The position numbers and the translations under genes were made by a program. From the UHGV virus genome UHGV-0231863: a stretch of 44,709 nucleotides of DNA; one strand, 5' to 3'. Shown here piece by piece: positions 6,922-34,651 of the stretch; positions within the stretch are counted from its first letter, which is position 1, and every line of letters begins with the position of its first letter. The stretch comes from a virus. The notes beneath the pieces were generated by a model. That model made no database searches. It had not been told where the DNA came from and worked only from the letters and a program-made list of their open reading frames with translations.

Positions 6922-6936
6922 TGTTGGTGTAAGTGA

Positions 6937-6965
6937 ATAGTACCCTATTATATTGGGGTGTGCAA
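6937..6965 (-). promoter_or_regulatory. promoter TTGCAC-17-TACTAT with AATAG-N4-CTATT operator (6936-6949)
   Basis: Minus strand CTTGCACACcccaatataatagggTACTATTCAC upstream of Imm-like gene; near-identical to cassettes at 28984 and 30284. Confidence 0.55.
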
Positions 6966-23253: not shown

Positions 23254-23282
23254 ACTATAATAGCTAGCTATTCAGGTGTCAA
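23254..23282 (-). promoter_or_regulatory. promoter TTGACA-17-TATAGT with perfect 14-bp palindrome AATAGCTAGCTATT (23259-23272)
   Basis: Minus strand, intergenic between nuclease and SSB-like genes. Confidence 0.6.
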
Positions 23283-25401: not shown

Positions 25402-25431
25402 AACTATAATAGCGAACTATTCACGTTGTCA
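25402..25431 (-). promoter_or_regulatory. promoter TTGACA-18-TATAGT with operator AATAGcgaaCTATT (25407-25420)
   Basis: Minus strand, divergent from XRE regulator gene; second degenerate operator AATATggtaCTATT at 25452-25465. Confidence 0.6.
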
Positions 25432-25496
25432 ATGGGCTTTTCTAAAATAATTAATATGGTACTATTCACATATCAACTGACTAAGGAGTAATTGGC

Positions 25497-25712
25497 ATGC
25501 AACCATCTGAACTAGGTATCCGTGTAGAGCAACGCCGTAAAGAACTCGGTATCTCCCAGCGCCATCTGGCTGTCCTGGCCGGTGTTTCCCAAGGCGCGAT
25601 TAACCAGCTGGCACTTGGGGTAACTCAGGACGTCCGCCCAGCGACGCTGTTTAAACTGGCGGAAGTGCTGCAAGTAGACGCCAAGTGGCTGGCGTTGGGT
25701 GAAGGGGCTTAA
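25497..25712 (+). CDS. XRE-family HTH transcriptional regulator (Cro/CI-like)
   Basis: HTH LGISQRHLAVLAGVSQGAINQLALG; divergently placed in the leftward operon next to operator palindromes. Confidence 0.8.
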   Translation: MQPSELGIRVEQRRKELGISQRHLAVLAGVSQGAINQLALGVTQDVRPATLFKLAEVLQVDAKWLALGEGA

Positions 25713-28166: not shown

Positions 28167-28400
28167 CTAGCGTTGGGGTTTCTTTTGTCTACGCACCGCA
28201 TTAACCCACTCTCCTTCGCTACGGTAAAAACTGCAATCAAGGATATCCTCTATAGAAAATTTAACTATTTTAGTGGGTCCACAAAAGTTATAAGGGAAAA
28301 GTTCTACATAACACCCATCGTCGGTTATATTTGACGCAATCTTGAAATAATATTTAATGCTGCCGTCTTCGCGGAAGCTACAACCCATACGCCCAATCAT
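28167..28400 (-). CDS. hypothetical protein
   Basis: 77-aa ORF between AlpA-like gene and primase. Confidence 0.4.
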   Translation of the reverse strand: MIGRMGCSFREDGSIKYYFKIASNITDDGCYVELFPYNFCGPTKIVKFSIEDILDCSFYRSEGEWVNAVRRQKKPQR

Positions 28401-28579
28401 TTCACGTTCTCCTTAATCCACTCTTCAACTTTATTACGGTCGAATGTTCCCGGTAAACGGCGACCCATAACCTTAATACAGCAATCCGGGAATTTACCAC
28501 TGCGCAACCAGTTATTAATTGTCTGACGCGTCACCCCGATACGCTCGGCTACTTCATTCTGTGTCATGTAATGTTGCAT
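28397..28579 (-). CDS. AlpA/Xis-like winged-helix DNA-binding protein
   Basis: MTQNEVAERIGVTRQTINNWLRSGKFP; AGGAG SD before internal ATG at 28579; first gene of the leftward operon. Confidence 0.6.
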   Translation of the reverse strand: MQHYMTQNEVAERIGVTRQTINNWLRSGKFPDCCIKVMGRRLPGTFDRNKVEEWIKENVK

Positions 28580-28610
28580 TTTTAAATCTCCTGTTTGTTT
28601 GGTGAAGCCA

Positions 28611-28639
28611 AGTATAGGATAGCGGGAATGTAAAAGCAA
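28611..28639 (-). promoter_or_regulatory. promoter TTGCTT-17-TATACT for leftward operon (AlpA-like gene first)
   Basis: Read on minus strand; ~30 nt upstream of the AGGAG SD. Confidence 0.45.
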
Positions 28640-28686
28640 CCAAAACACCACACAAAGTTACTAAGATACAAAAGATGCTACCGGTA

Positions 28687-28715
28687 TTGACTTTTACTTA
28701 AAAATATGGTAAGCT
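28687..28715 (+). promoter_or_regulatory. promoter TTGACT-17-TAAGCT (copy 1 of duplicated cassette) with palindrome AAGCTCAGcCTGAGCTT
   Basis: Plus strand; palindrome 28711-28727 overlaps -10; followed by identical 38-mer shared with 41272-41309. Confidence 0.45.
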
Positions 28716-28718
28716 CAG

Positions 28719-28756
28719 CCTGAGCTTGTGAAGTATGAACAAGCGACCGCGGCGCG
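28719..28756 (+). repeat. 38-nt block identical to 41272-41309 (copy 1)
   Basis: CCTGAGCTTGTGAAGTATGAACAAGCGACCGCGGCGCG; contains hairpin GCTTGT-gaagtatga-ACAAGC and ATG of micro-ORF MNKRPRR. Confidence 0.85.
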
Positions 28757-28901
28757 CGGCGGGCGAAACGAGCACGTGTAGCGTGTGGAGTGAGGCTCGC
28801 TGGCGCGTTTGGGAGGCCCAAAGTCTATTGTAATTCCCGCCTAAATATCTAAGTTACTGATTTGCCGTTGGTTATATCCGCAAGCTCACTCACTCACTCT
28901 T

Positions 28902-28938
28902 GGTGCCTTCGGCACCACGTTCGTTTCGTTTCGCTTGC
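28902..28938 (+). terminator. UUCG-tetraloop hairpin plus U-rich tract
   Basis: GGTGCC-ttcg-GGCACC followed by ACGTTCGTTTCGTTTCGCTT; preceded by (CTCA)x3. Confidence 0.45.
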
Positions 28939-28983
28939 TACCCCATTAAACGAAAGAATCACAACGGCAACGTAACTATTCTC

Positions 28984-29012
28984 TTGCACACACCAACATA
29001 ATAGGATACTAT
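28984..29012 (+). promoter_or_regulatory. promoter TTGCAC-17-TACTAT with operator AATAGgataCTATT (29000-29013)
   Basis: CTTGCACACaccaacataataggaTACTATTCAC then conserved AAACGAGA leader and GGAG SD. Confidence 0.55.
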
Positions 29013-29046
29013 TCACTTATCGAAACGAGACAGAGGAGTGAGGGCT

Positions 29047-29244
29047 ATGTTTAAACGTGGTCAGTTGGTTAAATACTCCGACGATAAACACGGCATAATT
29101 GAATTAAAATCTGCTTTATTTCCAGGAAAGTACGTAGTTACCGTGCAAAATGTGAGAGGAGTAAATTCACAAATATACGTAGCGGAGGAGAACTTAAAAC
29201 TCATCGGCAACAATTTTAAATTTAAAGGGGGGAGGGTGAAGTGA
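29047..29244 (+). CDS. hypothetical early protein
   Basis: ATG with GGAG SD downstream of conserved promoter cassette; stop overlaps next start. Confidence 0.45.
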   Translation: MFKRGQLVKYSDDKHGIIELKSALFPGKYVVTVQNVRGVNSQIYVAEENLKLIGNNFKFKGGRVK

Positions 29245-29444
29245 TGGAAGAATTATTTGAAGAACTGAAACATCATGATTTCGAGGAAATATATTTCGTA
29301 GCTGAACGCTACGAGGTGCATCTGGCGGACGGTATAACGGTTATTACATCTACCAGCGAGCGAATGTTAAATAGCTTACGAGCAATACGAACGGCATCGA
29401 ATCATGATGCTTGTGCCGACGACGCTGAGGGAGGTTGCCGTTAA
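29244..29444 (+). CDS. hypothetical early protein
   Basis: Acidic 66-aa ORF, TGATG / TAATG coupling to neighbours. Confidence 0.45.
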   Translation: MEELFEELKHHDFEEIYFVAERYEVHLADGITVITSTSERMLNSLRAIRTASNHDACADDAEGGCR

Positions 29445-29623
29445 TGCGAATCCGTATAACTGACCGCAGGCTTATCCGTATAACTGACCGCAGGCTTATA
29501 GATTTCGGTATCTCGGTAGGTGATGTTTTTCCGGCGTTCAGAATCAACCATTATGGTTTTATGATTGAGTACAAAGGGTCGTTATTGTTCGTGTATCGGG
29601 ATGAATGTGAGGTTCTGGTATGA
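29444..29623 (+). CDS. hypothetical early protein containing tandem IRITDRRL repeat
   Basis: 59-aa ORF; includes the perfect 24-bp tandem duplication. Confidence 0.4.
   Translation: MRIRITDRRLIRITDRRLIDFGISVGDVFPAFRINHYGFMIEYKGSLLFVYRDECEVLV
29450..29497 (+). repeat. perfect 24-bp tandem duplication (2 copies)
   Basis: ATCCGTATAACTGACCGCAGGCTT repeated head-to-tail; encodes IRITDRRL twice in frame. Confidence 0.9.
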
Positions 29624-29775
29624 GAGAAGCATTTGAACGGTGGGCTGTGGTCGAGGGTCTGCCGGTTAACAAGGGTTCAAAGAAAGAGTACCTGAACGTT
29701 AAGACGCGTCTCGCGTGGCGGGCGTGGAAAGCTGGTGTGCAATCCTTGATTGAAAGAGGTGTGAGGTATGGGTGA
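29620..29775 (+). CDS. hypothetical early protein
   Basis: 51-codon ORF read by eye, ATGA-type overlaps at both ends. Confidence 0.35.
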   Translation: MREAFERWAVVEGLPVNKGSKKEYLNVKTRLAWRAWKAGVQSLIERGVRYG

Positions 29776-29968
29776 GTGGATTAAGTGTAGTGAGATGCTG
29801 CCGGGTAATGGGTATACGGATAAAGAGTTCCTGGTGTATGAAACGTTAAATAACGCAGTTCAGCACGATTATTACATAGTTCCTGATGACGGGAGAAAGC
29901 CTTTCTGGAATCACTACGATAATTACGTGACGCACTGGATGCCGTTACCCGAGCCGCCAGAAGTGTGA
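29768..29968 (+). CDS. DUF551-like small phage protein
   Basis: C-terminal THWMPLPEPP motif. Confidence 0.5.
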   Translation: MGEWIKCSEMLPGNGYTDKEFLVYETLNNAVQHDYYIVPDDGRKPFWNHYDNYVTHWMPLPEPPEV

Positions 29969-30035
29969 TGTTCAATAGTTTGGGATTTTACTGAGTGACT
30001 TACGCTGCTACACAGCAGCGTACAACTTTAACTTA

Positions 30036-30059
30036 GTGTCGTCAAAAGGCGACACTTTC
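30036..30059 (+). terminator. terminator-like hairpin
   Basis: GTGTCG-tcaaaagg-CGACAC + TTT; preceded by 9-bp-arm inverted repeat TACGCTGCT-acac-AGCAGCGTA (~30001-30022). Confidence 0.4.
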
Positions 30060-30102
30060 ATCAAACGCAACAATCGAAGCGACTATTGCAGGAGATGCAA
30101 CA

Positions 30103-30276
30103 ATGATTACTAAAGAACAGGCTGAACGACTAATCACGTTAATCGACACGATGGTTGATGCGAAAACCGATTTAGCAACGGCGACAGAGGAATCCGCTAC
30201 CTGGTCGCTTGAAGAAAGAGAGGCAGAAGCGGAAAGGGAGTTACTGGCGTTCATCGACTCTATAACACACCAATAA
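30103..30276 (+). CDS. hypothetical early protein (approximate coordinates)
   Basis: 57-codon ORF with AGGAG SD; opposite-strand track ORF 30042..30254 is low-complexity and judged spurious. Confidence 0.4.
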   Translation: MITKEQAERLITLIDTMVDAKTDLATATEESATWSLEEREAEAERELLAFIDSITHQ

Positions 30277-30283
30277 AATTTAC

Positions 30284-30312
30284 TTGCACACTAAGATAGA
30301 ATAGGCTACTAT
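30284..30312 (+). promoter_or_regulatory. promoter TTGCAC-17-TACTAT with operator AATAGgctaCTATT (30300-30313)
   Basis: CTTGCACACtaagatagaataggcTACTATTCAT then AAACGAGAGGAGAG leader. Confidence 0.55.
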
Positions 30313-30342
30313 TCATTTACACAAACGAGAGGAGAGACAGAG

Positions 30343-30480
30343 ATGGGCTGGTACGGTAGCTGGACTTTAGGCGAACCGGTAGACGCTTACGAAATAATTA
30401 GTAGCACTTCGGTGTGTGACGGCGACACTAAATCGCTGCTAGTCGGGGTGGATGAGAAAAGGGGTGAAGCTGATGAGTAA
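30343..30480 (+). CDS. hypothetical early protein
   Basis: 45-codon ORF directly downstream of promoter cassette at 30284-30312; stop overlaps next start. Confidence 0.35.
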   Translation: MGWYGSWTLGEPVDAYEIISSTSVCDGDTKSLLVGVDEKRGEADE

Positions 30481-31018
30481 CAAAAACGAAATATTCGAGT
30501 ACCTGATCGACCAGCTACGGCAGCAGGTAAATAACAGCCGGAGCGAAGACCTGGCTCATGAGGTGCAGTCACTTAAGAATCAGTTACGTGATGCTTCGGC
30601 GCAGATTAAGGAGTTGCGGGAAGACAACATTAAGAAATCTGAGCACATATCGCACCTGACATGGCAAGTTAAGGAGTTGCATCTGGCATTGGCCGAGGCT
30701 ACTGGTGACGTGGAGGCATACAAACTTATCCGCAAAGGTGCGTACGGTTCGGAGCAATCTGGTTGCCGAAAAGAAGATACGCAGGAATGTGACCACAATT
30801 GGATTATCGCTCCAGGATTGTTTATCGCCGAAGGCCACAAGGACAACGTGCCCGGTAGCCGGTTTTGCTGCGAATGCGGCAAGCGTGAGTGGGACGGACT
30901 TGAGTATGGGGCAACAGCCTGTACACAGGAGTGCAAACACAGTTTCTATTATGTAATAACAGATGGCTCAGCGCCGTTCGGTACGAAAGTATGTAAAACG
31001 TGCGGGGAATACTTCTGA
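30473..31018 (+). CDS. coiled-coil protein with C-terminal Cys-rich (zinc-binding-like) domain
   Basis: N-terminal heptad region; C-terminal CDHNW, CCECGK, CTQEC, CKTCGEYF. Confidence 0.5.
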   Translation: MSNKNEIFEYLIDQLRQQVNNSRSEDLAHEVQSLKNQLRDASAQIKELREDNIKKSEHISHLTWQVKELHLALAEATGDVEAYKLIRKGAYGSEQSGCRKEDTQECDHNWIIAPGLFIAEGHKDNVPGSRFCCECGKREWDGLEYGATACTQECKHSFYYVITDGSAPFGTKVCKTCGEYF

Positions 31019-31221
31019 TGACCAGCATCTTATTTATCTGGGTACTGTCGGCGGGCAAGATGCAACTAGCGGCATCGGAAACGTTTTATTCGACGGAGGC
31101 GTGCCAGTCCGCGGCACGCGCCGCAGAGAACGCACACTTCCTGTTTCAGGGCGACAAGCCCAACGATTCAGAGGTACGCGCTATCTGCTCACCTAAGCGA
31201 CTTGGCAATCAGGAGAAATAA
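31018..31221 (+). CDS. small protein with signal-peptide-like N-terminus
   Basis: Hydrophobic N-terminus MTSILFIWVLSAGKMQLAAS; TGATG coupling. Confidence 0.35.
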   Translation: MTSILFIWVLSAGKMQLAASETFYSTEACQSAARAAENAHFLFQGDKPNDSEVRAICSPKRLGNQEK

Positions 31222-31514
31222 TGTCGTTAGCAACTGACATCCTGAAACGAAGCGGCCTTGCGCCGCTGTCGCCGAGAGCTAAAACACGGGTATACAAGCG
31301 CCACCGTAACGCTCTGTACCCTGAGATTCAGGCCAGACGTAAAGCTATCCGCGCCTGTGGATTCCAGAACGGGAAGGCCGTGAATCTCGGTGAGTTCAAA
31401 ACACAGGAACGTGCAGCTATAGCTAATCGGTTATTTAATTACTGGAAATCGCTTGGATACGATGATATTCCAACGAAACCCCAGAGACGACAATACATCT
31501 GGAGACATAAATAA
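31221..31514 (+). CDS. hypothetical basic protein
   Basis: 97-aa Arg/Lys-rich ORF. Confidence 0.45.
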   Translation: MSLATDILKRSGLAPLSPRAKTRVYKRHRNALYPEIQARRKAIRACGFQNGKAVNLGEFKTQERAAIANRLFNYWKSLGYDDIPTKPQRRQYIWRHK

Positions 31515-31589
31515 ACCGTTATTAGGATAATTCCTAACCGTGCTATCCTCCAGTTACTGCATACTTAATACGCACCTGGAGGATTCATC

Positions 31590-31898
31590 TTGGATAAATT
31601 TACTGAAACAGTTACAGGCTGGCTTCTCGCTGCCGCACTGGTCGGTGGATTGGTCGGGCTAAGACAACATAAAAAGTCTATATCCGGGCCGATTGACGGA
31701 CTGGTATTTCTTCTCACCGGCTTCGCGTGTGCTATTTTCGGTGCACCTCTTGCCGCTCAATGGTTCGGTATTACCGGTGAGCGTGAGATAGCTGGCCTCG
31801 GATTCATCATTGCCATTCTCTGGATGCCTATCTATTCCCGCCTTTCTGGCATCGTATCGGGTGGCGATATTGCCCGCCCAGGAGGACCGCATGACTGA
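31590..31898 (+). CDS. holin (putative)
   Basis: 102 aa with three hydrophobic helices, directly upstream of endolysin. Confidence 0.55.
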   Translation: MDKFTETVTGWLLAAALVGGLVGLRQHKKSISGPIDGLVFLLTGFACAIFGAPLAAQWFGITGEREIAGLGFIIAILWMPIYSRLSGIVSGGDIARPGGPHD

Positions 31899-32163
31899 GC
31901 TATTCTGGTTTGTCACAATGCTTTCAATGGGCGCTTCGTCCCTGTTCAACGTGTATAATGAACGCGTGGACGACGGGCTGTTCGGGCGTGTTCTCTATAT
32001 CCTGACTGCTATCGTCTGTGCCGCCGGATGTATTCACCTGTTACAGGGCAGCATGTCGCCTACGCTGCCTGAGACATTAATCACATTAGTCGCGCTGCGC
32101 CAGATTCGCCAGGCGTGGCTGTCATACGGAGGGCATAAGCGTGTCTCGAAATATTTCAGATAA
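31891..32163 (+). CDS. membrane protein (second holin / antiholin-like)
   Basis: ~90 aa from internal ATG, two TM helices, overlaps holin end and endolysin start. Confidence 0.4.
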   Translation: MTELFWFVTMLSMGASSLFNVYNERVDDGLFGRVLYILTAIVCAAGCIHLLQGSMSPTLPETLITLVALRQIRQAWLSYGGHKRVSKYFR

Positions 32164-32626
32164 TGGATTGCATTTTACCGCCGCGTTCGAGGGATTCCGC
32201 GGAACTGCGTATCGCGCTACGCCGAACGAGAAGTACCTGACTATTGGTTATGGTCACTACGGGCCAGACGTAACACCAGGTAAGACCATCACGCCAGGGC
32301 AAGGCCTCCTGTTACTGAATCGCGATATGGCTAAGGCCGTAGCTGCGGTCGATGCAGCAGCACACCATTCGCTGACACAGGCACAGTTCGACGCTGTGTG
32401 CGACCTGGTCTATAACGCGGGTGCTGGTGTGATAGCAGCTACTACCGGAACCGGTAAGGCGCTGCGTTCGGGTGATACTGCAACACTGCGGGCTAAGCTG
32501 GCGCTGTTCATCAACCAGAACGGCAAACCGTTACTTGGCCTGCGTCGCCGTACCGCAGGACGTCTGGCATTGTTCGACGGTAAACCGTGGCAGGAGGCTG
32601 AGGCAATCGGTAGGGCGGTTAAATGA
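32141..32626 (+). CDS. endolysin, GH24 lysozyme-like
   Basis: AAFEGFRGTAYRATPNEKYLTIGYGH motif characteristic of T4-type lysozymes; apparent GTG start. Confidence 0.8.
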   Translation: MSRNISDNGLHFTAAFEGFRGTAYRATPNEKYLTIGYGHYGPDVTPGKTITPGQGLLLLNRDMAKAVAAVDAAAHHSLTQAQFDAVCDLVYNAGAGVIAATTGTGKALRSGDTATLRAKLALFINQNGKPLLGLRRRTAGRLALFDGKPWQEAEAIGRAVK

Positions 32627-32755
32627 TGGACGAATACGAAGGCGTTTAGTAAACTTATCCCTACGCTGTTTGTGCTTGCATACTAAGCCCCGGTAAACCC
32701 GAAGCAGCAGCCCAAGCGGTGGAGACTGCGTAGGGTTCAAGGGCTTATGACCGAA

Positions 32756-32784
32756 ACCCGGACCGCGAATCCGGGTTTTATTTT
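32756..32784 (+). terminator. intrinsic terminator after lysis cassette (first of two)
   Basis: ACCCGGA-ccgcgaa-TCCGGGT + TTTATTTT. Confidence 0.65.
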
Positions 32785-32859
32785 ACCAATTGACACCTAA
32801 GACTAATCCGACGATACTTAAATCACCTCCTGTTCCATCCCTCTGCTCTCCAGTTCTAT

Positions 32860-32890
32860 CCCGGCACTGACCCAGCCGGGATTTTTTTTT
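32860..32890 (+). terminator. intrinsic terminator (second of two)
   Basis: CCCGGC-actgaccca-GCCGGG + A T9. Confidence 0.7.
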
Positions 32891-32912
32891 ATCTGTTTTC
32901 TGTAATGACTAG

Positions 32913-32941
32913 TTGACTATTACCTTAGACCCTATTATATT
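32913..32941 (+). promoter_or_regulatory. promoter TTGACT-17-TATATT
   Basis: Follows two tandem terminators; leader contains ACAACGAGA and GGAG SD. Confidence 0.45.
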
Positions 32942-32974
32942 TACTCCATCGACAACGAGAACGGAGTAGAGAAA

Positions 32975-33124
32975 ATGAAAATCACAGACATCGAAGCATT
33001 CAAAGACGCACAACTGATGGCACGCATCGCCGTTAGTAACCTGAGCAACAGCATTCCAGCGGACGCGTTCTGGTTCGCTGCGATGCAGACACTTAAAGCA
33101 GCTTATGCAGGAGAGAAGAAATGA
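32975..33124 (+). CDS. hypothetical early protein
   Basis: 49-codon ORF following promoter 32913-32941 and GGAG SD. Confidence 0.35.
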   Translation: MKITDIEAFKDAQLMARIAVSNLSNSIPADAFWFAAMQTLKAAYAGEKK

Positions 33125-33279
33125 GCGAACAAGGCCCAGTAAGCCAGCCGTTACGAGTAGGCCGTAAAGTCAGCCACACCCCGTTCCCGCCACGCGAGGA
33201 ACTGATGAAACGCAACAGTTTCCCGGGGCCGGACAAGAACAAGTATCTCAATCGCATGTGGGGGGAGCGTAAAGAATGA
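33121..33279 (+). CDS. hypothetical early protein
   Basis: 52-codon ORF, ATGA overlaps at both ends. Confidence 0.35.
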   Translation: MSEQGPVSQPLRVGRKVSHTPFPPREELMKRNSFPGPDKNKYLNRMWGERKE

Positions 33280-33461
33280 CTGACCGTGAATACGAAAAGA
33301 TGATGGTAGAGGCTGTTAACGGCGGCGTAGACATCGGTCACGTGATGCACGTCCTGAATACTAAAATCGCAGTAGCTGAGCAGATGGTTGAGTCGCTTTA
33401 CGAGACACGCCGTGAACTGATTAACCGCTTCAACCTGAACAAGGGTGATACCAATGCCTAA
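33276..33461 (+). CDS. hypothetical early protein
   Basis: 61-aa track ORF, coupled. Confidence 0.4.
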   Translation: MTDREYEKMMVEAVNGGVDIGHVMHVLNTKIAVAEQMVESLYETRRELINRFNLNKGDTNA

Positions 33462-33702
33462 AATCACAATCGCATCACTCGAACGCCGTATTATGGTGCT
33501 CGAGTCAGAGAAACAGACGTTAGGCGGGCAACTGTCGATTAACGGTGAGTACCAGTTAGCCGCATTTAAGGTTCTTCTCATGTTGTTGAGAGGAGAAGAG
33601 GAAAAGATGAACGCCTGCGAGCATGATTACCGCCTGCATTTAGTTGATGGGGAGCATCGAGTCACATGCTTAAAATGCGGTAAAGCGTATGAAAGCGCCT
33701 GA
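33454..33702 (+). CDS. hypothetical protein with C-terminal zinc-ribbon-like Cys/His pairs
   Basis: CEHDYRLH...CLKCGKAY. Confidence 0.4.
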   Translation: MPKITIASLERRIMVLESEKQTLGGQLSINGEYQLAAFKVLLMLLRGEEEKMNACEHDYRLHLVDGEHRVTCLKCGKAYESA

Positions 33703-33871
33703 ACCCGTAGTTATCGATGGCGTCCTGTGGAAACCATACTCGGTTAACCACATCGACGCCGACGGGAAGAAGTTCAGCTTCTACATTTTTGCAATTAGCC
33801 GTGAGCACGCCGCTTGTGTGGTCGACGATATACGAGAAACGGCGTGGCTCGGTGATGAGATAGTGGGGTGA
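33689..33871 (+). CDS. hypothetical early protein
   Basis: 60-aa track ORF. Confidence 0.35.
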   Translation: MKAPEPVVIDGVLWKPYSVNHIDADGKKFSFYIFAISREHAACVVDDIRETAWLGDEIVG

Positions 33872-33873
33872 AT

Positions 33874-34044
33874 ATGTTCAGTGACATCAACGCAGCAATC
33901 GAAGAGGCAATCTGGCGTCGTTACAACGGCGAGCAACAACGGCACTTTTGCCTGGTGCAACGCGGAAACATGATTGCTGTGGTACAGGACCGCGATAACA
34001 AATATCCGAATGCGATGTGGACAACGAGGAATTTCTTAGGATGA
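33874..34044 (+). CDS. hypothetical early protein
   Basis: 56-codon ORF read by eye; stop overlaps next start. Confidence 0.35.
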   Translation: MFSDINAAIEEAIWRRYNGEQQRHFCLVQRGNMIAVVQDRDNKYPNAMWTTRNFLG

Positions 34045-34277
34045 TTACCAGCATTCCAAACCTGATTAAAGAATACGGCACGATGGCTGAGACATGCCGA
34101 CAAACCGGCATCAACGAAATGACGATTGCCAAGTACAGCAAAGACGTTAACTGCGAGCGCCATGTAATTTATAACAACCGTCTGATGACGCACGTTAAGA
34201 CAAGCCCGGTGTTATTCACGCGCCGGGGTATCACTAAAACGGAGCAACGTATCGCTAAAGAGGAGAGTGGGGAATGA
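34041..34277 (+). CDS. hypothetical early protein
   Basis: Internal ATG of track ORF 34017..34277. Confidence 0.4.
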   Translation: MITSIPNLIKEYGTMAETCRQTGINEMTIAKYSKDVNCERHVIYNNRLMTHVKTSPVLFTRRGITKTEQRIAKEESGE

Positions 34278-34432
34278 TTAGTATTCTGGAGTTCATCGAC
34301 AACCAAGTTTGGTACGAGCCCGAGTTAAATAAGTATTCAGTTAATGGGAAAATATTTCGGCGCAAAGGCCAGGCAGAGCGTTACGCAGCTAAACTATACC
34401 GTCAGCTTGTCAAGGATGGTTTCTTCAAATGA
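34274..34432 (+). CDS. hypothetical early protein
   Basis: 52-codon ORF with GGAGAG SD, ATGA overlap. Confidence 0.35.
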   Translation: MISILEFIDNQVWYEPELNKYSVNGKIFRRKGQAERYAAKLYRQLVKDGFFK

Positions 34433-34533
34433 GACTACTAATCATCCCTAACGCCCGGGCCATTCCCGTAGCTAACGACCATTACGGCGGCGACGGTAAA
34501 AGAGCACCACGCCACGGCCTATACAACTGATAC

Positions 34534-34557
34534 AAGCCCTCTACCGAGGGCTTTTCT
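34534..34557 (+). terminator. intrinsic terminator before terminase genes
   Basis: AAGCCCTC-tacc-GAGGGCTT + TTCT. Confidence 0.55.
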
Positions 34558-34651
34558 GTACATCCTGCCCAATCACCTTATATAATCCATTTAGACGCGT
34601 AGGGCGCGTCTGGTGCGCTCTGATGGTCAGACGCATATGCAAGGGGATTAT

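What the first reader, a model, noticed from the sequence alone, without database searches (positions are those of the whole stretch)
29047..34432. Block of about 20 tightly coupled small early genes, a candidate anti-defence region
From 29.0 to 34.4 kb nearly every gene is under 100 codons and linked to its neighbour by ATGA/TGATG/TAATG overlaps; several were missed by the 60-aa ORF cutoff. Only the DUF551-like protein and the lysis genes are recognisable. Such blocks commonly hold host-takeover and anti-restriction or anti-CRISPR proteins.
Basis: inference. Interest (0 to 1): 0.4.

Follow-up and report, generated by a model that had tools for sequence, protein, structure and literature searches.

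The report
Small-gene arm of a Kagunavirus phage
The block is a real run of 22 overlapping small genes in a K1G-like (Kagunavirus) coliphage, but it is a mosaic of several transcription units already annotated in many relatives, and nothing found here or published shows that it blocks host defences.

Summary
Window 29047-34530 carries 22 plus-strand genes: 19 are under 100 codons, 17 of 21 junctions overlap or leave at most 2 nt, 21 have a Shine-Dalgarno motif, and most show dN/dS of 0.02-0.35.

The window is a virulent Kagunavirus (Guernseyvirinae). This block is 96% identical to phages K1ind2 and K1ind3 and is annotated as hypothetical proteins in many GenBank genomes.

It is not one unit. 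Conserved sigma-70-type promoters and intrinsic terminators split it into three parts:
- **g01-g06:** low GC, highly variable, several strongly acidic proteins.
- **g07-g10 plus holin, holin and endolysin:** the conserved core and lysis genes.
- **g14-g22:** a nin-like cassette (DUF2737, NinH-like).

The first two promoters carry an operator-like palindrome. It has six copies in the genome, mostly in intergenic gaps of the DNA-metabolism gene clusters, and two flank an XRE regulator gene. "Early" is therefore plausible for those units only.

No protein matches a known anti-defence or defence family. Published work shows Kagunavirus relatives that share about half these genes are restricted 10^-4 to 10^-6 by six restriction-modification systems, and AntiDefenseFinder found nothing in them. 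Anti-defence remains an untested possibility, confined to the variable genes g01-g07.

A conserved promoter, CU-rich stretch and terminator that looks like a small RNA gene (32790-32891) was noticed in passing.

The parts
28984..29012 (+). P1: promoter TTGCAC-N17-TACTAT, with the operator-like palindrome ATAATAGGATACTATTCA at 28998-29015
   Evidence: Exact match, one of only 3 in the window. Part of a 53-nt repeat shared with P2. Conserved in 11 of 11 Kagunavirus loci. The palindrome occurs 6 times against 0.05 expected.
29047..29244 (+). g01, 65 aa, basic (pI 10.4), first gene behind P1
   Evidence: SD GAGGAG. phrog_12538, unknown function. 38-100% identity in Kagunavirus loci, absent from Jerseyvirus loci.
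29244..29444 (+). g02, 66 aa, acidic (pI 4.3), variable
   Evidence: TGATG overlap. Full length in only 5 of 14 loci. Charge. No family hits.
29444..29623 (+). g03, 59 aa, with a perfect in-frame 24-nt tandem repeat at 29450-29497 (8-aa unit IRITDRRL)
   Evidence: Repeat found. Present as 2 or 3 copies in relatives. phrog_30395. Annotators of fTaEco03 note an HHpred FeoA-like hit.
29620..29775 (+). g04, 51 aa, basic (pI 10.8)
   Evidence: ATGA overlap. phrog_15836. Present in 11 of 11 Kagunavirus loci. dN/dS 0.27.
29768..29968 (+). g05, 66 aa, DUF551, acidic (pI 4.3)
   Evidence: Pfam PF04448, 45.2 bits against a cutoff of 22. dN/dS 0.15.
30001..30056 (+). Two tandem 9-bp hairpins after g05 with weak U tracts: a possible attenuator or RNA-processing site
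   Evidence: Folding energy -29 kcal/mol, z = -5.7.
30103..30276 (+). g06, 57 aa, DUF7438, very acidic (pI 3.9), helical
   Evidence: Pfam PF24219, 49.9 bits against a cutoff of 25. Present in 6 of 14 loci. dN/dS 0.08.
30284..30312 (+). P2: second copy of TTGCAC-N17-TACTAT, with the palindrome at 30298-30315
30343..30480 (+). g07, 45 aa, acidic (pI 3.7), variable
   Evidence: SD GAGGAG. Present in 5 of 14 loci.
30473..31018 (+). g08, 181 aa: N-terminal coiled coil followed by two CxH...CxxCG zinc-ribbon-like modules. A modular, fast-diverging family.
   Evidence: phrog_6094. 1330 homologues; the 120 listed are 106-258 aa with 0-4 CxxCG motifs. The AF2 helix at 27-77 is confident; the C-terminal part is low confidence. 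dN/dS 0.35.
31018..31221 (+). g09, 67 aa, hydrophobic N-terminus and 2 Cys. The most conserved small gene in the block.
   Evidence: 85-96% identity in all 14 loci, including Jerseyvirus. dN/dS 0.13. phrog_3766.
31221..31514 (+). g10, 97 aa, very basic (pI 11.5), predicted AP2/ERF-like DNA-binding fold at residues ~43-78
   Evidence: AF2 pLDDT 74-87 over residues 41-80. BFVD top hits are consistently AP2/ERF or HNH-endonuclease DNA-binding domains, prob 0.8-1.0, E 1e-3 to 0.3. PDB hits to AtERF1 and TEM1 AP2 are weak. No Pfam AP2 hit.
31590..31898 (+). g11, holin-like protein (TTG start), 102 aa
   Evidence: Annotated as a holin in relatives. Hydrophobic segments.
31891..32163 (+). g12, second holin-like protein, 90 aa
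32141..32626 (+). g13, endolysin (phage lysozyme), 161 aa
   Evidence: Pfam PF00959, E = 8e-27.
32753..32788 (+). Intrinsic terminator after the endolysin: 10-bp stem followed by UUUUAUUUU
   Evidence: Present in about half of the relatives.
32790..32891 (+). Conserved element resembling a small RNA gene: TTGACA-N17-GATACT, then a ~40-nt CU-rich stretch, then an 8-bp hairpin and U9
   Evidence: Conserved in all Kagunavirus and Jerseyvirus loci, 34 distinct sequences, with promoter hexamers invariant. No Rfam family.
32913..32941 (+). Pb: promoter TTGACT-N17-TATATT for the nin-like unit. It lacks the palindrome.
   Evidence: Conserved across both genera.
32975..33124 (+). g14, 49 aa, conserved across the subfamily
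   Evidence: 83-100% identity in 14 of 14 loci. dN/dS 0.11. phrog_2180.
33121..33279 (+). g15, 52 aa, DUF2737. Homologues are annotated in the nin regions of P22- and Sf6-type phages.
   Evidence: Pfam PF10930, 34.8 bits against a cutoff of 25. Annotations in relatives.
33276..33461 (+). g16, 61 aa. Matches the N-terminal half of the PHROG whose C-terminal half matches g20.
   Evidence: phrog_1402 and phrog_268 positions 1-41. dN/dS 0.09.
33454..33702 (+). g17, 82 aa: coiled coil plus a CxH...CxxCG zinc-ribbon-like tail, with a variable C-terminus
   Evidence: phrog_9023. Weak similarity to the g08 modules, E = 0.09. Partial or absent in several loci.
33689..33871 (+). g18, 60 aa, acidic, found only in Kagunavirus loci
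   Evidence: dN/dS 0.07.
33874..34044 (+). g19, 56 aa, found only in Kagunavirus loci, under very strong purifying selection
   Evidence: 95-100% identity. dN/dS 0.02.
34041..34277 (+). g20, 78 aa, NinH-like (Fis-like helix-turn-helix) protein
   Evidence: Pfam Phage_NinH, E = 2.5e-5 but 24.6 bits, below the cutoff of 29.8. phrog_268, E = 2e-30. Orthologues are annotated as NinH family.
34274..34432 (+). g21, 52 aa, basic, variable
   Evidence: Present in 5 of 14 loci. phrog_22059.
34429..34530 (+). g22, 33 aa, last gene of the chain.
   Evidence: ATGA overlap. phrog_32259. Annotated in relatives.
34535..34560 (+). Intrinsic terminator that closes the nin-like unit
   Evidence: z = -4.1. A terminator is annotated at the same place in phage Snoke.
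34557..34586 (+). Promoter-like TGTACA-N18-TATAAT ahead of the small terminase gene
25497..25712 (+). XRE-type HTH regulator gene outside the block, flanked by two copies of the palindrome (25406-25423 and 25451-25468). It is the candidate regulator of P1 and P2.
   Evidence: Pfam HTH_3, E = 1e-11. Motif sites and sequence.

Best explanation
This is the arm of a virulent Kagunavirus genome that runs from the divergent control region to the terminase genes. It is a compact, mosaic set of host-RNA-polymerase transcription units, not one functional island.

**Unit 1 (P1 -> g01-g06).** A low-GC, high-turnover cassette of tiny proteins, four of them strongly acidic. These are most likely non-essential modulators of the host or of infection.

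**Unit 2 (P2 -> g07-g10 -> holin, holin, endolysin).** It holds the core genes of the subfamily:
- g08, a modular coiled-coil and zinc-ribbon protein.
- g09, a highly conserved small protein with a hydrophobic N-terminus.
- g10, a very basic AP2-like DNA-binding protein.
- The lysis cassette.

**A conserved promoter/terminator element** insulates Unit 2 from Unit 3.

**Unit 3 (Pb -> g14-g22 -> terminator).** It is related in part to the nin regions of lambdoid phages (DUF2737, NinH-like Fis mimic). Most likely it encodes small DNA-binding or regulatory accessory proteins.

**How it works.**
- The 1-, 4- and 8-nt overlaps with Shine-Dalgarno motifs inside the preceding gene give translational coupling and genome compaction.
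- P1 and P2 carry an AATAG-N4-CTATT palindrome over the -10 element. It is shared with four other sites: one carries the same promoter ahead of minus-strand genes whose Bas70 counterpart includes a DNA repair exonuclease, one lies in an intergenic gap of the replication gene cluster, and two flank the phage XRE regulator gene. Units 1 and 2 are therefore probably switched together with the DNA-metabolism genes, in the early or middle class, by that regulator.

**Shown:** gene structure, coding constraint, promoter and terminator conservation, the mosaic pattern, and the domain hits.

**Inferred:** timing, the identity of the regulator, and every protein function apart from lysis.
For: **Identity.** The block is 96% identical over 100% of its length to phages K1ind2 and K1ind3; 393 phage records match it and no complete E. 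coli genome does.

**Gene structure and coding constraint.**

**Promoters and the palindrome.**
- P1 and P2 are exact copies of TTGCAC-N17-TACTAT within a 53-nt repeat.
- Both are conserved in 11 of 11 Kagunavirus loci.
- The palindrome occurs 6 times against 0.05 expected by chance.
- Two copies flank an HTH_3 regulator gene.
- The copy at 6934-6951 sits in a third exact copy of the promoter, ahead of minus-strand genes whose counterpart in Bas70 includes a gene annotated DNA repair exonuclease.

**Terminators.** Strong hairpins with U tracts lie at 32753-32788, 32858-32891 and 34535-34560, and tandem hairpins at 30001-30056.

**Mosaicism.**
- g01-g03, g05-g07, g17, g21 and g22 are missing, truncated or below 50% identity in many of the 14 relatives. 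g04 is kept in all 11 Kagunavirus loci, and g18 and g19 are conserved within Kagunavirus.
- g09, g13-g16 and g20 are conserved even in Jerseyvirus; g10 drops to ~37% identity there.
- Sixteen genomes give 115 ORF families in this arm, 46 of them singletons. This is approximate and includes some spurious flank ORFs.
- GC is 44% at 29-30 kb, against about 51% for the genome.

**Domains.** DUF551, DUF7438, DUF2737, NinH-like and Phage_lysozyme; an AP2-like fold for g10.

**Published function of lambda NinH.** A Fis-like protein that binds and bends DNA (PMC7166090).
Against: - No expression data exist for this phage.
- Apart from the conserved sites, the promoter scan is not enriched over shuffled sequence: 11 found against 9.1 expected.
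- The one Kagunavirus transcriptome is coarse. It names only one of its four early genes, so the timing of units 1 and 2 is not established.
- The link between the XRE regulator and the palindrome is inference from position alone.
- The AP2-like assignment of g10 rests on a medium-confidence model (mean pLDDT 68), Foldseek E-values of 1e-3 or weaker, and no Pfam AP2 hit.
- NinH-like g20 scores below Pfam's gathering threshold, and tblastn does not reach lambda itself.
- Fourteen of the 19 non-lysis proteins still have no functional clue at all.
Confidence: 0.7

Rival explanations
1. Anti-defence island. Several of the small proteins, above all the variable acidic ones behind P1 and P2 (g02, g05, g06, g07) and perhaps the fast-evolving g08, bind and inhibit host immune proteins as DNA mimics or stoichiometric inhibitors. 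This is the role proposed for accessory regions of other coliphages.
For: - Position directly behind strong conserved promoters.
- High gene turnover and low GC.
- pI of 3.7-4.3 with 17-25% acidic residues in g02, g05, g06 and g07.
- g08 is modular and diverges fast: dN/dS 0.35, one of the higher values among the better-sampled genes, with 0-4 zinc-ribbon modules.
- General precedent that accessory regions hold counter-defence genes (bioRxiv 10.1101/2023.04.06.535777).
Against: - No similarity to any known anti-defence or defence protein in PHROGs, Pfam, NCBIfam, PADLOC or PDB sequences.
- AntiDefenseFinder reports nothing for Bas70-76.
- About half the block is conserved core or lysis genes, which is not the pattern of an arms-race locus.
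- g02, g03, g06, g07 and g21 are absent or truncated in Bas70, so the published phenotypes do not test them.
Confidence: 0.2
2. The ORFs are largely spurious. On this reading the region is non-coding or regulatory DNA whose short ORFs arise by chance.
For: - Many ORFs are under 60 aa.
- 14 of the 19 non-lysis proteins have only 'unknown function' PHROG matches.
- g02, g03 and g21 have too few substitutions among relatives for a dN/dS test.
Against: - The plus-strand chain covers 87%, against 52% +/- 7% in shuffles.
- 21 of 22 starts have SD motifs.
- dN/dS is 0.02-0.35 for 17 of the 22 genes; g01 and g07 are higher but rest on few substitutions.
- Every ORF matches a PHROG family.
- The same genes are called independently in many GenBank records.
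Confidence: 0.03
3. The whole arm is a late operon under antitermination control, like lambda. The constitutive promoter at 32790 makes a short terminated RNA, like PR'-tR' 6S RNA, and a phage factor lets RNA polymerase read through into g14-g22 and the packaging and structural genes. Those genes would then be late, not early.
For: - A conserved strong promoter followed about 65 nt later by a strong terminator, just upstream of the nin-like and terminase genes, in both genera.
- One relative carries a gene in this unit that its annotators call an 'early transcription antiterminator'.
- NinH was classed as middle, not early, in phage K1B4.
Against: - No Q-like or N-like protein was detected in the window.
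- A second conserved promoter (Pb) sits right after the terminator and could drive g14-g22 on its own.
- Another terminator and promoter pair separates g22 from the terminase genes.
Confidence: 0.07

Closest known systems
The same gene block in published Kagunavirus genomes (K1G, K1H, K1ind1-3, UTI-CM001, fTaEco03, Golestan, BASEL Bas70-76)
   Same: Same order: divergent control region, small genes, holin-holin-endolysin, small genes with NinH, terminase. Identity reaches 96% over the full length. The same P1 and P2 promoters are present in 11 of 11 loci.
   Different: Gene content differs slot by slot. Examples are an HslV-like protease in Snoke, an annotated antiterminator in phage 26, an HNH endonuclease in SETP13 and extra ORFs in K1ind3. 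This window's exact combination matches none of the records examined.
nin region of lambdoid phages (lambda, P22, Sf6)
   Same: A run of short, overlapping, mostly dispensable genes that includes NinH-like and DUF2737-type proteins. Lambda NinH is a Fis-like DNA-bending protein (PMC7166090).
   Different: Here the genes sit in a virulent siphovirus, between the lysis cassette and the terminase, with their own promoter and terminator. They are not between the replication genes and Q under N antitermination. Only 2-3 of the 9 genes have nin-region homologues, and the NinH match is below Pfam's threshold.
Phage accessory regions that hold counter-defence genes (for example T7 gene 0.3 ocr, lambda ral, P22 abc; Silas et al., bioRxiv 10.1101/2023.04.06.535777)
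   Same: Variable small genes between conserved flanks, promoter-proximal, low GC, some very acidic.
   Different: No member matches a known counter-defence family. Relatives sharing about half of the genes are fully sensitive to restriction-modification systems and have no AntiDefenseFinder hits. Half of the block is conserved core.
Early promoter and operator regulons controlled by a Cro/XRE-type phage regulator
   Same: A 14-bp inverted repeat overlapping the -10 element is repeated at several promoters and flanks the regulator's own gene.
   Different: Binding has not been shown. The phage is virulent, with no integrase found and no prophage copies in E. coli genomes.

Membership tests
Translationally coupled polycistronic operon | Stop and start codons overlap or abut, with a ribosome-binding site inside the upstream gene | tested here: met
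   17 of 21 junctions are 2 nt or less apart or overlap; 21 of 22 starts have SD-like motifs. Coupling itself is inferred, not measured.
Phage accessory (high-turnover) region | Gene content varies between close relatives while the flanks are conserved | tested here: met
   Met for g01-g03, g05-g07, g17, g21 and g22. Not met for g04, g09, g10, g13-g16, g19 and g20, which are kept in all Kagunavirus loci and most also in Jerseyvirus. 115 ORF families across 16 genomes, 46 of them singletons.
Anti-defence locus | At least one protein homologous to a known anti-restriction, anti-CRISPR or other counter-defence family | tested here: not met
   Nothing in PHROGs (all 'unknown function'), Pfam, NCBIfam, PADLOC or PDB sequences. 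AntiDefenseFinder lists no entry for Kagunavirus Bas70-76. No dedicated anti-defence HMM library could be run on this window.
Anti-defence locus | The phage resists the defence systems it is supposed to inhibit | tested here: not met
   Literature, on relatives only. Bas70 and Bas71 plate at about 1e-4 to 1e-6 on six RM systems and about 0.2-1.3 on RexAB, PifA, Fun/Z, Old and Tin. Bas70 shares 10 of the 19 non-lysis genes at 84% identity or more. This phage itself was not tested.
Early gene class | Transcribed from host-RNA-polymerase promoters immediately after infection | tested here: inconclusive
   P1 and P2 are good sigma-70-type promoters shared with intergenic sites in the DNA-metabolism gene clusters. 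The K1B4 transcriptome classes only 4 of 57 genes as early and names one of them. No data exist for this phage.
Lambdoid nin region | NinH family protein (Pfam PF06322) | tested here: inconclusive
   g20 scores 24.6 bits against a gathering score of 29.8, E = 2.5e-5. phrog_268 gives E = 2e-30. Orthologues in RefSeq are named NinH family. tblastn does not reach lambda at E <= 1e-3.
Lambdoid nin region | Located between the replication genes and the late regulator Q, and transcribed by N-antiterminated read-through | tested here: not met
   Here the genes lie between the endolysin and the terminase, with their own promoter and flanking terminators. No Q or N homologue was found.
Holin-endolysin lysis cassette | A muralytic enzyme next to small membrane proteins | tested here: met
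   g13 matches Phage_lysozyme at E = 8e-27. g11 and g12 have hydrophobic segments (maximum KD17 of 2.2) and are annotated as holins in relatives. The spanins lie elsewhere in the genome of relatives.
AP2/ERF-like DNA-binding domain (g10) | Three-stranded sheet packed on a helix, with a match to the AP2 profile | tested here: inconclusive
   The model shows a beta-hairpin at 43-59 and a helix at 62-78, pLDDT 74-87. BFVD hits are dominated by AP2/ERF and HNH-endonuclease DNA-binding domains, prob up to 1.0 but E >= 1e-3. PDB AP2 hits have E > 1. There is no Pfam AP2 hit.
Small regulatory RNA gene (element at 32790-32891) | Own promoter, short unstructured seed region, intrinsic terminator, and conservation | tested here: inconclusive
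   The promoter hexamers are invariant in two genera while the spacer diverges. The terminator shows one compensatory stem change. No Rfam family reaches threshold; the best is 22 bits against 50. No specific target was found in the phage. Expression was not testable.

The most novel reading that the evidence does not exclude
One or more of the variable proteins behind P1 and P2 found new families of host-defence inhibitors or triggers, aimed at systems other than classical restriction-modification. The candidates are the acidic g02, g05 (DUF551), g06 (DUF7438) and g07, and the modular coiled-coil and zinc-ribbon protein g08. In addition, the conserved CU-rich element at 32790-32891 is a genuine phage small RNA shared by all Guernseyvirinae.
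Probability: 0.2. Interest if true: 0.55.

Novelty: already known. Interest (0 to 1): 0.22.

Why it matters
As it stands this is ordinary. It is the standard small-gene arm of a well-sampled coliphage genus, already in GenBank as hypothetical proteins. Its value is practical, because Kagunavirus phages are used in phage therapy and in synthetic phage engineering (for example CM001). Three results could guide genome minimisation and function screens:
- A map of which small genes are core (g09, g10, g14-g16, g19, g20) and which are dispensable-looking accessories (g01-g07, g17, g21, g22).
- A map of where the promoters, the shared operator-like motif and the terminators lie.
- The point that published phenotypes already argue against anti-restriction activity, which saves effort.

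Any real novelty would come from experiments on the acidic variable proteins, on g08, and on the conserved small-RNA-like element.

Tried and rejected
- **PDB sequence searches.** Single-sequence searches for g01, g02, g05, g06, g08, g10 and g20 found nothing below E = 0.09, and the weak matches are coiled-coil or chance hits.
- **NCBIfam and PADLOC.** Only sub-threshold coiled-coil noise for g08.
- **g08 structure prediction.** The coiled coil is confident but the Cys-rich half is not (pLDDT below 50), so no fold search was run on it.
- **g08 and g17 sharing a zinc-ribbon module.** BLASTP gives E = 0.09, which is suggestive only.
- **g09 as a missing spanin.** Rejected. Rz-like spanins are annotated elsewhere in the genome of Bas70, and g09 has no lipobox.
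- **Generic promoter and terminator scan.** Not enriched over shuffled sequence. I relied only on sites that are conserved in relatives or that fold significantly.
- **Rfam.** No family at gathering scores in the whole window and no tRNAs.
- **Target search for the CU-rich RNA.** No outlier among the phage translation-initiation regions; the best z was -1.9.
- **K1B4 transcriptome.** Its text and supplements do not say which three unnamed genes are early.
- **Degenerate promoter pattern against viral contigs.** Most hits were chance matches and had to be filtered by the terminator.
- **tblastn from g20.** It does not reach lambda NinH.

Full report
**What the window is.** The block 29047-34432 matches 393 phage records. 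The best matches are Escherichia phages K1ind3 and K1ind2 (100% coverage, 96.0% identity), followed by other members of the genus Kagunavirus in the subfamily Guernseyvirinae. It has no match in 5,426 complete E. coli genomes, so it is not a prophage. The 44.7-kb window is essentially a whole genome of a virulent K1G-like siphovirus. A helicase-primase gene on the minus strand lies just upstream of the block, and the small and large terminase and portal genes lie just downstream. The same stretch is annotated in many GenBank records as rows of 'hypothetical protein' around a holin-holin-endolysin cassette.

**Checking the observation.**
- I placed 22 plus-strand genes between 29047 and 34530. 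Nineteen are shorter than 100 codons and nine are shorter than 60.
- Seventeen of the 21 junctions are overlaps of 1, 4, 8, 14 or 23 nt, or a 2-nt gap. Twenty-one starts have a Shine-Dalgarno-like motif.
- The best plus-strand ORF chain covers 87% of the region. That compares with 52% +/- 7% (maximum 70%) in 200 shuffles and 66% on the minus strand.
- Against orthologues in up to 14 related phages, pooled dN/dS is 0.02-0.35 for g04-g06, g08-g20 and g22. g01 (0.41) and g07 (0.60) rest on about 20 substitutions each. g02, g03 and g21 have too few substitutions to judge.
- Every ORF matches a PHROG family.

The genes are real and the description is right. The corrections are these:
- The chain runs on to 34530.
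- Three genes are not small (g08 181 aa, holin 102 aa, endolysin 161 aa).
- Four intergenic gaps interrupt the chain.

**Anatomy: several units, not one block.**
- *Shared promoter.* A 53-nt element containing TTGCAC-N17-TACTAT occurs upstream of g01 (28984-29012) and upstream of g07 (30284-30312). A third exact copy lies at 6965-6937 on the minus strand. Both plus-strand copies are present in 11 of 11 Kagunavirus loci.
- *Palindrome.* The -10 region is embedded in the palindrome ATAATAGGnTACTATTCA (half-sites AATAG and CTATT). It occurs six times in the window against 0.05 expected by chance. The other four sites are:
  - 6934-6951, within the third promoter copy. It stands ahead of minus-strand genes whose counterpart in Bas70 includes a gene annotated DNA repair exonuclease.
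  - 23257-23274, in an intergenic gap of the minus-strand replication gene cluster.
  - 25406-25423 and 25451-25468, which flank a 71-aa XRE-type HTH_3 regulator gene at 25497-25712.

  An earlier paper on phage fBC-Eco01 found the same repeated motif with PHIRE. It attributed the motif to a phage RNA polymerase (PMC9825357). None is annotated in the complete genome of the relative Bas70. The -35 and -10 spacing fits host sigma-70.
- *After g05.* Two tandem 9-bp hairpins (z = -5.7) follow g05.
- *After the endolysin.* A classical terminator lies at 32753-32788. It is followed by a conserved promoter-like TTGACA-N17-GATACT, a CU-rich stretch and a second strong terminator (32858-32891, U9). Then comes another conserved promoter, TTGACT-N17-TATATT at 32913-32941, directly ahead of g14.
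- *After g22.* A further terminator at 34535-34560 and a promoter-like site at 34557-34586 precede the terminase genes.

The arm therefore reads as P1 -> g01-g06, then P2 -> g07-g10 plus the lysis genes, then Pb -> g14-g22, then the packaging genes.

**Core versus accessory.**
- Protein-level comparison with 11 Kagunavirus and 3 Jerseyvirus loci shows two classes.
  - *Conserved:* g09 (85-96% identical even in Jerseyvirus), g10, the lysis genes, g14, g15, g16 and g20 are kept throughout. g04, g18 and g19 are kept within Kagunavirus.
  - *Variable:* g01, g02, g03, g05, g06, g07, the C-terminus of g17, g21 and g22 are missing, truncated or below 50% identity in many relatives.
- Other genes occupy those slots elsewhere. 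Examples are an HslV-like protease in Snoke, an annotated antiterminator in phage 26, and an HNH endonuclease in SETP13.
- A rough clustering of ORFs in this arm across 16 genomes gives 115 families, 46 of them singletons.
- The first kilobase of the block has 44% GC and strong positive GC skew, in a genome of about 51% GC.

Only the promoter-proximal part therefore behaves like a high-turnover accessory region.

**What the proteins look like.**
- *Curated hits above threshold:* DUF551 (g05), DUF7438 (g06), DUF2737 (g15) and Phage_lysozyme (g13).
- *g20 and g16.* g20 matches Phage_NinH below the gathering score (24.6 against 29.8 bits) but matches phrog_268 at 2e-30. g16 matches the N-terminal part of the same PHROG. 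Lambda NinH is a Fis-like protein that binds and bends DNA (PMC7166090).
- *DUF551.* It is described as a portable domain of unknown role in prophage proteins (PMC10834534).
- *g10.* It is very basic (pI 11.5). Its AlphaFold model (pLDDT 74-87 over residues 41-80) has a beta-hairpin plus helix. In BFVD this most resembles AP2/ERF-type DNA-binding domains of phage proteins and homing endonucleases. The hit list is consistent but the E-values are weak.
- *g08.* It is a coiled coil followed by CxH...CxxCG modules. It has 1330 homologues; the 120 listed range from 106 to 258 aa with 0-4 such motifs.
- *g17.* It has a similar tail.
- *Acidic proteins.* g02, g05, g06 and g07 have pI 3.7-4.3.

**Testing the anti-defence idea.**
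- No protein matches a known anti-defence or defence family in PHROGs, Pfam, NCBIfam, PADLOC or the sequences of solved structures.
- The BASEL collection paper characterised seven Kagunavirus phages. It reports 'high sensitivity to RM systems' (PMC11990801).
[quoted passage not shown] On RexAB, PifA, Fun/Z and Tin the values are near 1, and on Old they are 0.2-0.8.
- Its AntiDefenseFinder sheet has no entry for Bas70-76.
- Bas70 carries orthologues at 84% identity or more of g04, g09, g10, g14, g15, g16, g18, g19, g20 and g22. It carries distant versions of g01, g05 and g08. It lacks g03, g06, g07, g21 and most of g02.

A broad anti-restriction function is therefore excluded for the shared genes and unsupported for the rest. 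An activity against other systems by the variable acidic proteins cannot be excluded. I give it about 0.2.

**Timing.**
- P1 and P2 share their operator-like motif with sites in the DNA-metabolism gene clusters and with the XRE regulator's own gene. Units 1 and 2 therefore probably belong to the early or middle class. This is inference.
- The only Kagunavirus transcriptome (vB_Eco_K1B4) classed 4 of 57 genes as early, including the HTH gene next to the control region. It classed lysozyme and NinH as middle. Its sampling is coarse and it does not name the other three early genes (PMC12645636).

'Early' is thus plausible for part of the block and unlikely for all of it.

**Verdict.** The block is the ordinary, already annotated small-gene arm of a Kagunavirus. 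It combines three parts:
- a promoter-proximal hypervariable cassette;
- conserved small DNA-binding or regulatory proteins next to the lysis genes;
- a nin-like cassette.

These parts are held together by translational coupling and split by conserved promoters and terminators. Interest is low (about 0.2). The remaining upside lies in experiments on g01-g08 and on the conserved small-RNA-like element noted in passing.

Noticed in passing
window 32790-32891 (+): A conserved non-coding element lies between the endolysin gene and g14. It consists of TTGACA-N17-GATACT, then a ~40-nt CU-rich unstructured stretch (AAUCACCUCCUGUUCCAUCCCUCUGCUCUCC, containing the anti-Shine-Dalgarno-like CACCUCCU), then an 8-bp GC hairpin and U9. 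It is present in all 11 Kagunavirus and 3 Jerseyvirus loci and in 34 distinct sequences including IMG/VR contigs. The promoter hexamers are invariant while the spacer diverges 45% between genera, and the stem shows one compensatory change. It looks like a ~65-nt small RNA gene, or a lambda PR'-tR'-like terminated leader. No Rfam family matches (best 22 bits against 50), and no specific target was found in the phage.
   Followed up: partly
window 6934-6951(-), 23257-23274, 25406-25423, 25451-25468, 28998-29015, 30298-30315: There are six copies of the palindrome-containing motif ATAATAGGnTACTATTCA, against 0.05 expected by chance. Three of them lie within exact TTGCAC-N17-TACTAT promoters. Two flank the XRE-type HTH_3 regulator gene at 25497-25712, which suggests a phage-wide operator regulon. 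A published paper attributed the same motif to a phage RNA polymerase, but none is annotated in the relative Bas70.
   Followed up: partly
window 29450-29497 (inside g03): A perfect in-frame 24-nt tandem duplication encodes the 8-aa unit IRITDRRL. Relatives carry 2 copies (fTaEco03, K1ind2, K1ind3) or 3 copies (CM001, K1G), so copy number varies within the genus.
   Followed up: yes
window 30473-31018 (g08): This is a highly modular protein family: a conserved N-terminal helix, a coiled coil of variable length, and 0-4 repeats of an 'RKEDTQEC.H.W...C..CG' zinc-ribbon-like module. It has 1330 homologues; the 120 listed are 106-258 aa, and most of those whose longest contig is given come from ~40-45 kb contigs. 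Its dN/dS of 0.35 is among the higher values for the better-sampled genes.
   Followed up: partly
window 31018-31221 (g09): This 67-aa protein has a hydrophobic N-terminus and two cysteines. It is 85-96% identical across both genera, which is more conserved than the endolysin (78%). Its function is unknown. An alternative GTG start at 31000 would add a positively charged residue ahead of the hydrophobic stretch.
   Followed up: no
window 30001-30056 (+): Two adjacent perfect 9-bp hairpins (z = -5.7) lie between g05 and g06, each with only a weak U tract. They could be a partial terminator or an RNase processing or stability element inside unit 1.
   Followed up: no
window 28652-29046: This is a 395-nt divergent control region between the minus-strand HTH_17 gene (28397-28651) and g01. 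It contains a CACT repeat run, a GC hairpin at 28901-28917 and only very short ORFs. Some relatives annotate small genes here.
   Followed up: no
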